Below are positions 8,756 to 51,537 of a stretch of DNA of 64,000 bases, piece by piece (position 1 is the stretch's first letter; each line of letters starts with the position of its first letter). The position numbers and the translations under genes are program-made. Source of the stretch: Octopus vulgaris (Eukaryota); NCBI GenBank assembly GCA_951406725.2, contig OX597828.1:49848001-49912000 (forward strand), given 5' to 3'. Below the pieces are notes generated by a model. The model was not told where the DNA came from, did not search any database, and saw only the letters and a list, made by a program, of their open reading frames with translations.

Positions 8756-8904
8756 TCTCCTTGTTTTTTCTGTGTCCCTTTCTGTAGAAGAGCATAGGCT
8801 CGAAACGTAAAATACTTTTTTCTATTCCTGAGCGTTATACTAATACATCTGTTTGTTTTGTACACCACCTGCCTTCGTCTTTTGTTTTTTTCGTAAACTC
8901 ACCC
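8756..8904 (+). mobile_element. Short Penelope-like terminal fragment with degenerate HHR-like motif (8779-8812)
   Basis: CTGTAGA-a-GAGC-atag-GCTC-GAAAC-GTA. 3' end abuts long (TA)n. Homologous to 13526-13725, 33510-33605 and 33749-33958. Confidence 0.55.
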
Positions 8905-9361
8905 TATATATATATATATATATATATATATATATATATATATATATATATATATATATATATATATATATATATATGTGTGTGTCTGTGTTTGTCCCCT
9001 CCACCACCGCTTGATGTTGGTATGTTTATGTCCCCGTAACTTAGTGGTTTGGCCACAGAGAATGATAGAATGAGTACTAGGCTTACAAAGAATAAGTCAT
9101 GGGGTCGATTTGTTCAAATAAAGGTGGTGCTCCAGCATGGCTGCTGTCAAGTGACTGAAACAAGTAAAAGAAAAAATACATGTTTGTATATGGAAAAGTG
9201 GGTGTTAATGCAATGAAGATGATGAATGATGTTGATGTGTGTGTGTTTGTGTATATGTGTGAGGGTATATATACACACACACACATATATTTATATGTAT
9301 ATATATATATATATATATATATATATATATATATATATATATATATATATCTTATATATAT

Positions 9362-10165
9362 AATACAAAAATGGGACAAGAATGCAAAACATCCAGACAG
9401 GTGATACAAAAAAGGGACAAAAAACATCCAGACAGACGGTACAAAGAAAACAAGGATGGGTATTTGGAGTTTTCTATCCTCAGTCGACATAACAACAGGT
9501 GTCTTTCGACTAAGGACGAATTAAATCTAACTGGCGTGTGTGGAAGTAAAGCTTTATGGCAGGGACATAAGATTTGACAGGCACAGGGAGGAATATAGAT
9601 GGTAGTCGAACCAAGAAAGAAAGGTCAGGCTTGGCTGAACACCAGTCATGTGGGGAGAGAGAGGTAGAGGCAGAAGGATAGAAGAATTAAGGAGAGGTGA
9701 GAAAAAAATGAAAGGGACAGGGTGAAGTGAAAGAGGAGGAAAAGTGAGCATGAAGAGAAGGCCAGGAAATGTGACAGAGGGGGAACAAAAGAACGAAGAG
9801 TGGAATGAACGAAGTAAGTGTGAAAGGGCTGATAGAAAGAAGGAAAGAATGAAAAAATAGAAAGAATAATAGTCGTACAAAATTTAGATATATATATACT
9901 TACATATAAAAGACCAAAGTATGTACACTGCTATATTTTTATGTATAAAAAATACAAAAATGGAACAAGAACACAAAACATCCAGCCAGTTAGGTGATAC
10001 AAAAGGGGACAAAAAAAAAAAAACAAAGCATCCGGACAGACGATACAAAGAAAACAAGGACAGGACATTTGGAGTTTTCTATCCTCACCTGAGTTCCAGA
10101 TTATCTTTGCAATTTCAGATGGTTATACTCGAGATTACTCCAATCTGGACAGCCCCTGATCTCTC
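9362..10165 (-). mobile_element. Partial-tandem repeat element, two copies of a ~125-bp end (9362-9485, 9952-10090)
   Basis: Both copies contain ACATCCAG..GGTGATACAAAA..CAGACG.TACAAAGAAAACAAGGA..TTTGGAGTTT(T)CTATCCTCA. Bounded by (TA)n. Confidence 0.55.
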
Positions 10166-10304
10166 CTATATATCTATATCTATCTATCTATGTCTATATC
10201 TATATCTATATCTATATATATATATATATAAAATCACAATCATCATTATCATCATCTACATGCATTTTCCATGCAGGCATGGGTTGGATGGTTTGACTTG
10301 AGCT

Positions 10305-10918
10305 AGTAACATTCACTATTTTATGTCTTTCGACTTTAGACCTTCTAAGGTCTAGTCATTGACCACAGAGCGACTCAGCCATGTTCCTGTTCAAGCGACA
10401 GACGACTAGTCAGCCAGCCAACCAGCCAGCCATGCTACTGCTCCAGCCATGAAGACACTATTATACACCAGCGACAGACAGGATGTTCTCCATCTCTGCT
10501 GCCGTCATCATCATCATTGTCTCCATCTCTGTCGACTTCAACAACATGTACACATCAACATCTACACAGGTTTAATCTCACGCTGTTTGTGAATATTGAC
10601 CCTGGTAAATACAGTCAAAGTCTACCTGAAGAACCATCTGTATCAAGAGACTCGGCTCGGCATTGAAGCCCCAACCGCGGCACGACATGTGCCCAACTAG
10701 CCTCTGCCACTATGCTAGCACTCACAACACACTATCTTTGTACACATTGTAAATAAAGTCTTCTCTCTCAAACAGTAGAATGGTTTTGTCATCCTTCATT
10801 TATTCCTTTTGGCACTGTATTTTATATCATGTATTTGGCTTATGTCAGGGGCGACAGTGCGGCGTTCAAAAGGAGACATTTGTCACCAACTCCTTACGTA
10901 CGGTCGTATTTCCTACAT
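10305..10918 (+). mobile_element. Possible truncated solo LTR
   Basis: ~610-bp block interrupting an RTE-tail copy, with internal AATAAA (~10752) and ending TTTCCTACA. No matching TG start or TSD seen. Confidence 0.3.
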
Positions 10919-48159: not shown

Positions 48160-49499
48160 TATATATATAAAGACATTTCAGATTTATAAATATTGATATG
48201 TCAATTTCAAGAAGAGCACAGCTGGTTTAAGAATTGAATATTTCAATATAAGATTTTTTTTTTAACAGGAAGCATCATCATTATTAGTTTTTGTTGAATT
48301 TGTAACTTGTTGATACAGATGTTACTTTAGATGTGGCTCTGTTTGCTGTGATGTGCCATATCTACAGTGTGACACTTGTACTTATATTCCTTGGCAGGTC
48401 TCTTTTCTTTTCAGTATTTATAGATAGTTGTCAGTATTTATAGAGATAGTTGATATGAAAATAGATCTCTGAAAGTAGAGAATGAGTATTTGCTGCTTTG
48501 CACATGTGCATATGTGTGTGAAAGAGAGAGGAGTATAGGCAGGGGAATATGTTTCACATGCCACCATAAAATAAAACAAGTTTCAAGGGAAGCAGTCATA
48601 GGTGGATCAGAATCAACAGTTGGCTTTCTTAGTAATTTAATCACGTTTTCATATCCTCAATGGTGTTCTTAGAATCAGAGAAGTGCTGAACTTGCAGTAT
48701 TTCAGTTGTGTACTTCTGCATGCTGAGTACAAACCCTGAAACAGTTCCTTCTGGGTTGAAAATAGTTGTCAAAAATATAATGGCTTGATTCAGTAATTAA
48801 TCATGGTTCCAACTTCAGTCCTATTATATGATACTTGATAATATAATAGTAATAATAATAATGAGTTTATTGTATACAGTGCTTGGGTGTACTATAATGC
48901 ATTAGAAAATGGTTAAAAAAAAAGGAAACAAAAAATAGCAGTAAGTCAAATAAAGAAAGGCAGCAAATGATAGCCAAAATATAAGTATTGTAGACAAGAT
49001 AAAACACAATAAGGGGGTGAGCTAGCAGAACCGTTAGTATGCTAGGTGAAATGCTTAGCGGCATTTCATCTGTCTTTATGTTCTGATTTCAAATTCCACC
49101 GAAGTCAACATTGTCTTTCATCCTTTCAGGGTCGATAAATTAAGTACCAGTTGCATACTGGGGGTGATCTAACCGACTGGCCCCTCCCTCCCCAAAATTT
49201 CAGGCTTTGTGCCTAGAGTAGAAATGATAAAACACAAGAAGACAGAAAAGTGAACATTGAAAGAACCATGAAAAGGAAAGGGTGCATAGGCACAGCAGGA
49301 GTAATGTTGATGAATTTCATGAAGCCTGAAACTTTTGAAGGATAATAATGTCCTGTCATAGCTGAAAACCCGATGTGGTTTGCTTATTCTGTGCTTTGAC
49401 AATACTGAGTATGAAAAATGTTTCTGAAACTCATGTGTGTTGGATTGCTTTTTGATTTTTATAAGCATGTCAATGAGGGGTAGAGATATTAAATTCAAA

Positions 49500-50900
49500 C
49501 TGGCCAAAGTTGTTGGAAAGGTGGTGGATAATCTTGTGGGCTTCTTCCAAGCCAGCTACTAGGTGTTTAAACTTGTGTCGATGCTTCTGAGAATTAAGTT
49601 TCAAGATATGGTAACTGACGGAGAGTATTTGTCAGGTTGCATATCTTTAGGCAGCTTCCAATAGATCGGCATTCTGCACAAGTTGCAGGATCACACTGGA
49701 GATGCAAGCTGTGTGAATATACCATAGTCTTTAGCCTTATGTAGCTTTCAATAGATAGCTGGTAAGTTGTTAGCCTAGGTTTTACTGAGTGATGCTAAAC
49801 CATCTTTGGCGTTTTTGACAATTTTAGAAAAGTGGTTTATCCAACATAGATCATCGTTGACAATAATGCTATGGTTACTTTCACTAACAGTGTTAAGGTT
49901 GGTATTGTGAAATGAGTTGGTAAATTGTAAGTTTTCCTTCCTAAAATGTATAGTGATGGACTTGTCTACAGCAGTCTATTGTTGTATTATGCCCAGGTAA
50001 GTTTGCAGGAAAGATCTATAGTGTATAGGATCCATTTTATTATCTCAAGATAATTTGATGAATTGGCCACAGCAGCTGTTAGGAATAACTTAGAATGTAA
50101 GGGTTGAAAAAGGCTATGAGAGGTTCAAAAGTTTCAGAGTGTTTCTCTGACACAAGACTCCATCAATTTGGCAATATAGCTAGTGAGACGGACTGGACAA
50201 TAAATGACAAGTGATGTGTAGTTCCCCTTTTTAAACAGGCAAAATCCTGGCAATTTTCCACTATTCTGGGGTAATACAATTATTAAGGCAGAATAGGAAG
50301 AGGAATGAAAGCTGGTGCTGTGAAAAGAGGCTACTGCATTAGAAAAGCAGATGAATGACACCATCAAGACCAGGGGAAGCACAGTTGCACACATACTCGA
50401 GGTGGCATCACACCATTGCTGGAGTAAATTCAACAGATTTTATGGAATTTGGTGTCATTTGTGGAGAAGATAGTATCTTTGGATTTTTCATAGTAGAAAT
50501 GCCGGAAAAACATTTGGTATTAAGTTCTTTGTACTTTTTGGCATATCATCATTAACCTGAAGTGAGAGGATTGTGCAGAGGGCTAACTAGAGAGTTACTC
50601 CTCTGTTTTAAATGCGCATATTTCCAGAACACATTACTATCAGGGTTGGTTGCTATGCATTGCTCAGTTCTAAGCTCTGCTTTTTCAGTTTCTTGCTTGA
50701 TATGCTTGGATGCTCTGTTGCACTTTTCTCTCTCATCCTCTGTTCTACATAATCTGTATTCACATTCAGCATCTCATCCTTTCTGAGCAAGGTGAACTGC
50801 TGCAGTCTCCAAAATTTCACTTTTCTTATGCATTTATGTGGTACTTGCAGTCCAGATTGAATTGAAGATGTGCTGAAGGAAACTATTAAAATCTCTGAAG
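49500..50900 (-). mobile_element. Degenerate CR1/L2-type LINE RT fragment
   Basis: LFKKGNYTSLVIYCPVRLTSYIAKLMES resembles KKG..NYRPISLTS..KlmE. Confidence 0.55.
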
Positions 50901-51017
50901 CTGTTAAGTATTTATAATATTCTGAAGTCAGTAAAATAAATATACCAGTTATATATTGAGGTTGTTTTATTTAGTCACAGTACACTCCTTCAAAAGAAAG
51001 GGAAAACGTTATCTAAC

Positions 51018-51537
51018 ATTTTGTTGTGTCTGGGGAGAGTCATACTGCCTTGATATCTAACACACCAGTTCAATTTCTGAGTCAACATCCATTGGCAAAG
51101 TTGCAAAAGCAGTGAAAATTTTTGAAAGGCACACACAAACAAAAAAGCAACATATATATATATATATATATATATAGCTGATCGACTTAAGCGGGGCAGG
51201 GTCGTTGTTTATTTATAATGCATTCAGGCCTGCTGATGAGTACGTAAGTATGAAATCACTGTGATACAGGTCTATATTTTTTAAATGTCTTACTTTGAAA
51301 AATTGCATTCGGTGGGATTAGTAATATTTTTGGTATAAATGACTAATTGTCCCTCTTAGCGTTTGGCATGTATGTATAATGCCTTCTGGCATGTATGTAT
51401 AGTGCCCTCTATATATATAATATATATATATATATATATATATATATATATATAAATAATGAGTGGAAATTGAACTGGTGTGTGTGTTATAGTTATATTT
51501 ATTAAAGCAGTATGAGTCTCCCCAGACACAACAAAAT
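51018..51537. mobile_element. Fold-back element of the 11124 family with a nested (TA)n-HHR insert
   Basis: Inverted arms ATTTTGTTGTGTCTGGGGAGA / TCTCCCCAGACACAACAAAAT. Internal GTTGCAA..GCA.TGAAAATTTT is shared with the 11.2-kb copy. Confidence 0.65.
51226..51273 (+). ncRNA. Canonical minimal type I hammerhead ribozyme in insert 51177-51409
   Basis: aggcctg-CTGATGA-gtac GTAA gtat-GAAA-tcac t gtga-TA-caggtct. All core nucleotides intact. Cleavage predicted after 51266. Confidence 0.85.

What the first reader, a model, noticed from the sequence alone, without database searches (positions are those of the whole stretch)
8756..51409. About 10 hammerhead-ribozyme inserts anchored on (TA)n microsatellites
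Seen: HHR or HHR-like motifs at 8779(+), 13654(-), 16769(-), 16831(+), 24533(-), 33854(-), 34901(+), 39325(+), 41788(-), 47120(-) and 51226(+). Helix sequences differ entirely between the best copies, yet pairing is kept (helix I cctacg/cgtagg, aggcctg/caggtct, cacacg/cgtgtg, tgaac/gttca, gagcttc/gaagctc, ctgt/acag). Helix III is a short palindrome or near-palindrome. In nine loci the HHR is followed on its own strand by an 85-190 nt tail and then (TA)n. None encodes RT or GIY-YIG. Established: Penelope-like elements (PLEs) carry minimal type I HHRs with palindromic helix III that cleave as dimers, some PLE clades insert into microsatellites, and retrozymes are non-coding HHR elements. Inference: several non-autonomous or truncated HHR retroelement families target (TA)n at roughly one per 6 kb here, and may contribute to the (TA)n load.
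Basis: partly seen in the sequence, partly recalled or inferred. Interest (0 to 1): 0.9.

Follow-up and report, generated by a model that had tools for sequence, protein, structure and literature searches.

The report
Hammerhead retroelements that target TA repeats
The ten hammerhead-ribozyme-like inserts are real: nine are short copies of genome-wide repeat families, either end pieces of Penelope-like retrotransposons or non-coding tandem 'retrozyme' units, likely pasted into existing TA microsatellites by the Penelope enzyme; this is a known kind of element, but the commonest families carry ribozyme cores predicted to cut poorly.

Summary
Observation confirmed, with corrections. The 11 motifs are 10 insertions (16769/16831 is one inverted insert). 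Nine belong to nine dispersed repeat families of this 2.8-Gb, likely octopus genome; one degenerate copy was not searched on its own. Four are 3' ends of Penelope-like elements (PLEs) whose coding parents I found elsewhere: two Neptune/Nematis-type (one young, intact, 4,271-bp tandem unit) and two Hydra-type. Four are non-coding tandem or permuted units (about 357, 378, 480, 582 nt), i.e. non-LTR retrozymes. One family has no parent found. 3' ends sit at fixed short TA motifs and run into (TA)n that the template lacks. Flank lengths and 10-13-bp duplications fit insertion into existing arrays, not TA synthesis. Density in a 600-kb sample is one per 20 kb, not one per 6 kb. Less expected: many short copies start at one site, likely the transcription start, and the largest families carry A6U (19,716 exact copies) or U4C cores. 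HHR-bearing, (TA)n-targeting PLEs, including an octopus Hydra, are in print; octopus retrozymes were not found in my searches. The scan noted a similar TA-targeted tandem repeat in another genome. Cleavage and circular RNA are untested.

The parts
8756..8904 (+). Family I: 5'-truncated 3' end of a decayed Neptune/Nematis-type PLE; minimal HHR at 8779-8812 with A6U core (CUGUAGA), helix III palindrome ACGU; (TA)36 follows
   Evidence: parent with RT, C-x4-C-x2-C linker and GIY-YIG remnants in L461; 19,716 exact A6U motifs genome-wide
13525..13720 (-). Old degenerate relative of families C/I; HHR core at 13681, helices I and II decayed; 5' boundary approximate
   Evidence: weak similarity to C (score 37 vs shuffles 21+-2.6, max 33); not searched genome-wide; 0 hits in the 600-kb sample
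16681..16898 (.). Family E: one inverted insertion (long arm 16681-16820 minus, short arm 16833-16898 plus), 3' end of a Hydra-type PLE; canonical core CUGAAGA
   Evidence: parent L241 with 3.26-kb inverted arms reaching a CxCx5C endonuclease ORF
24428..24614 (-). Family D: short 3' end of a Hydra-type PLE starting at the AGTC site; U4C core (CCGACGA), weak helix II; (TA)n on both sides
   Evidence: parents L463 (open 696-aa RT-EN frame, DKT, CxCx5C) and L464
33746..33959 (-). Family C: ~225-nt monomer with fixed 5' end, related to family I; U4C core in this copy; parent not found
   Evidence: (11,571 exact motifs)
34840..35172 (+). Family H: old retrozyme-like unit (~378 nt) with a short inverted 5' arm (34848-34886) that removed helix I; no (TA)n behind this copy
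39284..39507 (+). Family F: mini-copy of the pseudo-LTR of a young two-ORF PLE, from the ACAGTC site to the first 3' end, 100% identical to the full element over 224 nt; U4C core, helix III palindrome AGUACU
41620..41910 (-). Family G: old retrozyme-like unit (~357 nt), canonical core, followed by (TA)11
46930..47437 (-). Family A: 508 nt of a ~582-nt retrozyme unit, HHR at 47120-47210 with canonical core, long helix II arm and ACGUACGU palindrome; (TA)18 and (TA)30 on the two sides
51175..51423 (+). Family B: 249 nt of a 480-nt retrozyme unit, canonical HHR at 51226-51273, inserted in (TA)n between the inverted arms of a MITE-like element

Best explanation
The inserts are short copies of Penelope-like element (PLE) ends and of non-coding retrozyme units, each carrying a type-I hammerhead fold 90-190 nt before its 3' end, and they were likely made by PLE proteins nicking a (TA)n array and reverse-transcribing the RNA from the nick. 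Shown: coding parents for D, E, F, I; tandem or permuted non-coding units for A, B, G, H; two fixed 3' end sites per family at short TA motifs; (TA)n absent from internal tandem junctions; inverted 5' arms; occasional 10-13-bp duplications. Inferred: the GIY-YIG endonuclease cuts (TA)n, the nicked end pairs with a 1-8-nt UA stretch in the RNA and primes the RT. A PLE transcript starts in the upstream pseudo-LTR and so holds the HHR-plus-tail twice. Priming on the 3' copy gives long or variably truncated inserts; priming on the 5' copy runs off at the transcription start and gives the abundant 140-250-nt mini-copies with a fixed 5' end (D, E, F, I, probably C). Retrozymes A, B, G, H are likely copied in trans from circular or multimeric RNA, giving permuted and tandem inserts. 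The RT must read across the cleavage site, so the template is uncleaved or re-ligated RNA.
For: F parent: 4,271-bp tandem unit, ORF1 430 aa and overlapping -1-frame ORF2 775 aa with RVT_1 and GIY-YIG; 619 homologues, named ones mostly from bivalve records. D and E parents have Hydra motifs; I parent has RT and GIY-YIG remnants. B arrays: 8 units of exactly 480 nt with an inverted arm and TA at both ends, one array of 31 units. 3' ends: A 22 at +268-280 and 5 at +373-384 of 27 informative copies; F 8 and 9 of 17; all run into TA where the template goes on differently. Arbitrary sample: 23 of 30 with TA vs 5.6%; descriptor 13 vs 0.4 shuffled. Helix pairs across 10 families: 67 of 70 vs 35.7 when partners are shuffled, on a parse that I fitted. 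Fixed 5' ends: F 1,556 exact matches just behind ACAGTC vs 686 just ahead and 10 of 30 copies start within 8 nt; I 22 of 30; D 15 of 25 (script gave 16, one is a variant that runs on); E 22 of 25 invert at the HHR edge. D and F have CCAAT and TATA-like boxes, E a TATAAAT, about 30 nt ahead. B is read through its cleavage site in 28 of 30 matches. PLE transcripts start inside the upstream pseudo-LTR (PMC2377424, passages); TATA plus Inr-like motifs occur in pLTRs (PMC3846280, passages).
Against: No transcription start, cleavage or circle was observed. The fixed 5' ends could be RT pause sites or separate short master elements; family I shows no TATA-like box at -30 and C has no longer parent in 30 of 30 copies. 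A, B and G show no similarity above shuffle to the ends of the four PLEs tested, so their helper is unidentified. Many B copies counted are units of the same arrays, and long arrays may grow by unequal crossover. The top-40 lists favour copies most like the window copy. Only 17 of 40 copies have TA on the 5' side, which needs target deletion or edge targeting as an added assumption. G and H are less clearly TA-anchored (G 8 of 20 by a crude end-motif test).
Confidence: 0.8

Rival explanations
1. All ten are plain randomly 5'-truncated PLE ends, and the tandem non-coding units are satellites that grew locally from a solo pseudo-LTR by unequal crossover, without trans-mobilisation of a retrozyme RNA.
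For: Four families do have coding parents. bioRxiv 10.64898/2026.07.22.740005 proposes local amplification from PLE termini (part 3 read). One B array has 31 units.
Against: B and A are dispersed over most chromosomes as 98-99% identical monomers, dimers and arrays with fresh TA junctions at two fixed end sites and inverted 5' arms. In A, B, G and H the sequence upstream of the HHR is the unit's own 3' part, not an ORF. Random truncation does not give a 56% drop across 7 nt in F.
Confidence: 0.12
2. The short fixed-end families (C, I, D) are self-standing SINE-like elements with their own internal promoter, amplified from short master copies rather than run off from full PLE transcripts.
For: C: 0 of 30 copies extend past the 5' end. 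I: about 20,000 motif copies but only a decayed parent seen. Insertion after a T rebuilds TCAGTC at the 5' end of most I copies.
Against: I, D, E and F all have longer copies continuous with a PLE ORF; in F the mini-copy is 100% identical to the intact young element. The two routes are not exclusive.
Confidence: 0.25
3. The elements make the (TA)n themselves: the telomerase-related RT adds TA repeats by reiterative copying at the start of synthesis.
For: TA is longer on the 3' than the 5' side (24.8 vs 10.2 nt, Wilcoxon p=0.0006, n=40), and 15 of 40 copies have TA on the 3' side only.
Against: Copies with an informative duplication have no added TA; 0 of 15 show a duplication beyond the run; summed TA equals background.
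Confidence: 0.07

Closest known systems
Minimal type-I HHRs in pseudo-LTRs of EN+ Penelope-like elements (Cervera & de la Pena 2014, PMC4209133; parts 1-2 of 4 read)
   Same: Type-I fold, extra nucleotide after A9, short palindromic helix III, many solo motifs from truncated PLEs, many unrelated families per genome, U3-A8 covariant (seen here in two PLEs outside the window).
   Different: The parts read do not mention octopus, (TA)n targeting, family-wide A6U or U4C cores, or 5' ends piled at one site.
Hydra-clade PLEs (Craig et al. 2021, PMC8557442; section 11, passages, supplement look-ups), incl. Hydra-1_Obim
   Same: CxCx5C linker, no CCHH, DKT motif, canonical-type HHR, (TA)n insertion; a family from an octopus is catalogued.
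   Different: Motifs of the window families E, C, B and A were not found in that supplement (line breaks could hide a match). E has a ~2.9-kb microsatellite-rich 3' UTR, longer than whole described Hydras.
Neptune/Nematis PLEs (PMC8557442 passages; two-ORF Neptune in PMC12602865 passages)
   Same: RT, CX2-5CxxC linker, C-terminal GIY-YIG with CCHH; partial tandems, inverted arms, 30-40-nt tail; separate ORF1.
   Different: Neptune versus Nematis not resolved; no reference sequences in the script box.
Animal non-LTR retrozymes (Cervera & de la Pena 2020, PMC7229834, passages; Li, Clavereau & Pollet 2026 preprint, parts 1-3 of 5)
   Same: Non-coding, low-GC tandem units with one type-I HHR, monomers to multimers, predicted stable circular fold.
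   Different: PMC7229834 has 0 occurrences of octopus, microsatellite or target site in the main text (supplement unreadable). Here the units show PLE-type integration marks and (TA)n junctions. No expression, circle or cleavage data here.

Membership tests
EN+ Penelope-like element (parents of D, E, F, I) | RT followed by C-terminal GIY-YIG endonuclease | tested here: met
   F: Pfam RVT_1 E=1.9e-6, GIY-YIG E=2.7e-5; I and D by tblastn and motifs; E only the EN part is present in L241
EN+ Penelope-like element | Partial tandems forming pseudo-LTRs, inverted 5'-truncated arms | tested here: met
   F 4,271-bp tandem units and inverted copies; D and E inverted arms; not shown for I
EN+ Penelope-like element | Optional 30-40-nt tail at one end | tested here: met
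   F about 40 nt; D about 75 and E about 90 nt, longer than described
EN+ Penelope-like element | RT phylogeny inside the PLE clade | not tested
   No named reference RTs available to the tools; homologues carry no clade names
Neptune/Nematis clades (F, I) | CX2-5CxxC linker and CCHH motif in EN | tested here: met
   Read from the translations: C-x4-C-x2-C, CxxC inside the GIY-YIG core and two later His
Neptune (as opposed to Nematis) | Clade placement by RT tree | not testable with these tools
   Reference sequences could not be brought into the tools
Hydra clade (D, E) | CxCx5C linker, CxxC and CxH near the conserved E and N, no CCHH | tested here: met
   L463 and L241 translations against the definition
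Hydra clade (D, E) | DKG changed to DKT; RWK motif | tested here: inconclusive
   DKT present in L463; its N-terminus is cut by the inversion, so RWK could not be seen; E parent lacks the RT part
Hydra clade (D, E) | Generally shorter than 3 kb | tested here: not met
   E: about 2.9 kb of 3' UTR alone. This is a described tendency, not a diagnostic motif; D has about 1.2 kb from stop codon to end
Non-LTR retrozyme (A, B, G, H) | Non-coding tandem units, each with a type-I HHR, GC below 45% | tested here: met
   B 8 x 480 nt, longest ORF 54 aa; A 575-583, G 356-359, H 378-379 nt from natural partial tandems; GC 0.33-0.42 for A, B, G. Two complete consecutive HHR units seen for A and B only
Non-LTR retrozyme | Expressed as linear and circular monomer RNA | not testable with these tools
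   Only assembled contigs were available; tandem DNA and circles give the same junction
Hammerhead ribozyme, type I | Conserved core CUGAnGA/GAAA/UH | tested here: inconclusive
   Canonical in B, E, most G and H, half of A; U4C in most C and D and 17 of 29 F; A6U in I
Hammerhead ribozyme, type I | Three helices with compensatory change | tested here: met
   67 of 70 pairs in 10 families, 3-5 pair types per position, shuffle mean 35.7, max 48; parse fitted by me, family A left out
Hammerhead ribozyme, type I | Self-cleavage as monomer or dimer | not testable with these tools
   Needs in vitro transcription

The most novel reading that the evidence does not exclude
In this genome's most successful PLE-derived families the hammerhead has been tuned down or switched off as a catalyst (A6U in about 20,000 exact copies with position 7 free to vary, U4C in most C, D and young F copies, U3-A8 plus A13C in another intact PLE) and is kept as an RNA handle for the PLE reverse transcriptase, which primes on the 5' copy of the tail and sheds tens of thousands of start-site-to-tail mini-elements; only the tandem retrozymes, which need circles, keep a full core.
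Probability: 0.25. Interest if true: 0.7.

Novelty: new member of a known kind. Interest (0 to 1): 0.45.

Why it matters
What the hammerhead does in Penelope-like elements, and which enzyme moves animal retrozymes, are open questions in the papers read. This genome offers a young intact PLE (F) with over 1,500 end copies, a young retrozyme with a canonical ribozyme (B), and natural core variants at very high copy number. Together they make three things testable: whether cleavage is needed for PLE transposition, whether mini-copies are run-offs at the transcription start, and whether retrozymes are moved in trans by PLEs. The PLE-type junctions on retrozyme copies are more direct evidence for that than the co-occurrence and homology reported so far. 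For annotation, tens of thousands of short repeats that look like SINEs are likely PLE ends.

Tried and rejected
Rfam scan: only microsatellite-driven miRNA models among the 150 rows shown of 365; not informative. Sequencing-run search with the B unit: no RNA holder listed. Laying four contig runs on 50700-51860 to find an empty allele of the B insertion: TA stretches were skipped and no contig bridged the site; one 511-nt contig holds a permuted B unit, which tandem DNA explains as well as a circle. A first tail-only search for B returned mostly the same top copies and many units of the same arrays, so it was repeated by pattern. Exact counts on the two sides of B's cleavage site (200 vs 481) are confounded by a variable T run and were not used as a test. 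The crude end-motif TA census over-counts F (templated TA in the tail) and B (shared arrays) and under-counts G and I; replaced for A, B, F. Looking for the helper of A, B, G by alignment to four PLE ends: no signal; A versus B overall score 98 vs shuffles 74+-10, max 106, not significant. PLE fragments next to A (L011, L014) and G (L185) look like nested neighbours, not parents. Parent of C: none in 30 copies. Cap-derived extra G at 5' ends: seen in E and 3 of 30 I copies only, with other explanations; dropped. Lunse et al. 2017 on PLE hammerhead variants is not held and may already cover these cores. De novo TA synthesis and chance motifs were considered and rejected as above.

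
Full report
Setting. The window lies in G000, 2.8 Gb in 227 contigs. I take it for an octopus from recalled repeat sequences and from mollusc homologues; this is inference. 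It has 1.67 (TA)6 runs per kb against 1.20 in an arbitrary genome sample.

Observation. The 11 motifs and their helix-I pairs are as described. 16769 and 16831 are two arms of one inverted insert, so there are 10 elements. A strict type-I descriptor finds 2 of the 11, with 0 hits in 30 shuffles. Nine of ten elements have (TA)5 92-193 nt behind the predicted cut; window background is 27%. No PLE protein match lies in the window.

Families. I searched G000 with nine of the ten elements; each is a dispersed family (first-look candidates and identity of listed full-length hits): A 47204, 2,502, 98-99%; B 51233, 1,020, 98-99%; C 33883, 2,299, 96-97%; D 24566, 1,387, 98-99%; E 16814, 765, 97-99%; F 39330, 85, 100%; G 41826, 3,858, 84-89%; H 34901, 1,287, 77-83%; I 8782, 1,177, 95-98%. 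Exact pattern counts, with 0 for reversed controls: I-type HHR 19,716, C 11,571, D 1,195, F 1,556, B 481. The tenth element (13525-13720) is a decayed relative of C and was not searched. In 600 kb from 60 evenly picked stretches the 12 families tested gave 30 hits, one per 20 kb, 23 with TA at the 3' end against 5.6% background; B, G, H and three others gave none. A descriptor allowing natural core variants gave 13 hits against 0.4 in shuffles, four of them in further families.

Coding parents. F is the pseudo-LTR of a young PLE with a 4,271-bp tandem unit, a 430-aa ORF1 and an overlapping -1-frame 775-aa ORF2 with RT, a C-x4-C-x2-C linker and GIY-YIG. I continues in 6 of 30 copies into a longer 3' UTR, and in L461 into decayed RT, linker and GIY-YIG. 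D continues in L463 and L464 into a Hydra-type frame, open for 696 aa in L463, with DKT and CxCx5C. E continues in L241 through 3.26-kb inverted arms into a CxCx5C endonuclease. These motifs match the Hydra definition (PMC8557442 section 11). Two more intact two-ORF PLEs, not represented in the window, also end in (TA)n and carry U3-A8 hammerheads, one with A13C as well.

Non-coding units. B forms arrays of 480-nt units (8 units with 0-3 differences, an inverted arm and TA at both ends; 31 units at another locus). A (575-583 nt), G (356-359) and H (378-379) occur as partial tandems and permuted copies. Circular folding z-scores are -3.9 (A), -5.8 (B), -3.2 (G) against 25 shuffles each. This fits non-LTR retrozymes (PMC7229834, passages; bioRxiv 10.64898/2026.07.22.740005, parts 1-3 of 5). 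No similarity to the four PLE ends tested was found, so the helper is unknown. C has a fixed 5' end in 30 of 30 copies and no parent found.

Targeting. For A and F every informative copy (27 and 17) ends at one of two sites where the template holds 1-8 nt of TA, or a short templated TA run at the second F site, and runs into (TA)n while the template goes on with other sequence; B shows the same two-site pattern. So the array is target, not template. Family I shows 10-13-bp duplications in 4 of 17 copies (control 6 of 272); C in 1 of 22 (control 16 of 462). Around 40 copies of I and C the 3' TA is longer than the 5' TA (24.8 vs 10.2 nt), the sum (34.9) matches the length-weighted background (36.6), and 0 of 15 copies with only 3' TA have a duplication beyond the run. 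I read this as insertion into existing arrays, often with loss on the 5' side, and little net TA gain. No empty allele was obtained.

Fixed 5' ends. In F, 1,556 exact matches lie just behind an ACAGTC site and 686 just ahead of it; 10 of 30 copies taken in genome order start within 8 nt, and the rest spread to beyond 1,400 nt. The window's F copy starts exactly there. I starts at TCAGTC in 22 of 30, D at or inside AGTC in 15 of 25 (query began 12 nt behind the site), and E inverts at the HHR edge in 22 of 25 (query began there). F and D have CCAAT and TATA-like boxes and E a TATAAAT about 30 nt upstream; I does not. Penelope transcripts start within the upstream pseudo-LTR (PMC2377424, passages) and rotifer pLTRs hold TATA and Inr-like motifs (PMC3846280, passages). 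I infer run-off at the start site after priming on the 5' copy of the tail. In B, 28 of 30 matches read through the cleavage site (several are units of shared arrays), so cleaved linear monomers are not the usual template.

Ribozyme cores. Across ten families 67 of 70 helix positions pair, with 3-5 pair types per position (fitted parse, A omitted). Helix III is a palindrome in A, C, F, I and typical G, a near-palindrome in B, D and H, and a 4-bp stem with a palindromic loop in E. Cores: canonical in B (20 of 20), E (25 of 25), most G and H; A 15 CUG and 14 CCG of 29; U4C in 76 of the first 100 listed C motifs and 96 of the first 100 D motifs (counted by eye) and 17 of 29 F copies, against 12 canonical; A6U in I, 19,716 against 473 for the A6 form of a similar pattern. 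PMC3088659 (passages) reports low activity for changes at position 6, and reduced in vitro but sufficient in vivo activity for U4C. U3-A8 is known from PLEs (PMC4209133, parts 1-2), which also report low activity of PLE hammerheads and leave non-cleavage roles open. No cleavage was tested here.

What is in print. HHRs in PLE pseudo-LTRs, (TA)n targeting by Hydra, Neptune and Naiad, and retrozymes as PLE derivatives are published. Craig et al.'s supplement lists Hydra-1_Obim with (TA)n preference and an HHR; four window-family motifs were not found in it. An O. vulgaris repeat annotation lists 190 PLE families and many unclassified SINEs; the two of three parts read and the supplement search show no ribozyme (PMC13282606); its library could not be compared. 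Searches for octopus plus hammerhead ribozyme and retrozyme plus octopus or cephalopod returned no report of octopus retrozymes. PMC6765202 and PMC12602865 were seen as passages only. Lunse et al. 2017 and the supplement of PMC7229834 could not be read and may bear on the core variants and on octopus.

Verdict. Real and well explained: new families of known kinds. Interest 0.45, carried by the family-wide variant cores, the start-site mini-copies and the PLE-type junctions on retrozymes, all testable.

Noticed in passing
L077, L081, L240 (G000:C11:36191000-36200999 and others): Young two-ORF PLE (784-aa RT-EN frame, many 99-100% identical copies) ending in (TA)n; its HHR fold has U3-A8 plus A13C (UUGAUAA...GCAA). 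30,039 first-look candidates for its protein.
   Followed up: partly
L244-L250: Second two-ORF PLE family, 72% identical to the first, 4,386-bp tandem unit, HHR with U3-A8 core and ACCGGU palindrome, 3' UTR rich in CTT/CAT repeats.
   Followed up: partly
L237:2958-3048: F ORF1 and ORF2 overlap by about 90 nt in the -1 frame with a U-rich slippery-type heptamer; a programmed frameshift is likely.
   Followed up: no
Families A and B 3' ends (window 46933-46950, and B second end): Both end at or near CCTTAATTGCT, and G ends at TTATTGCT; A and B tails share a stretch like ATGAGG-TTTTAC...ATCTAC. May be a common recognition signal; overall A-B alignment was not significant.
   Followed up: partly
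window 51018-51077 and 51466-51537: Inverted arms (76% alike) of a MITE-like element enclose the B insertion.
   Followed up: partly
window 25946-26413, 27500-29718: Decayed LINE reverse-transcriptase fragments interrupted by (TA)n arrays.
   Followed up: no
window 54362-55502 and 36402-37501: A 31-bp minisatellite of 37 copies and a 1.1-kb degenerate TA array.
   Followed up: no
L286, L296, L297, L335: Four further HHR motifs of other families in the 600-kb sample, two with U3-A8 cores; the genome holds more families than the window shows.
   Followed up: no
L006, L009, L011, L091: Different TA-targeting families nest head to tail in the same microsatellite, which can mimic chimeric elements.
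   Followed up: partly
L241:5560-8460: Hydra-type parent of E carries about 2.9 kb of microsatellite-rich 3' UTR, so this family does spread (TA)/(TG) repeats as cargo when long copies insert.
   Followed up: no
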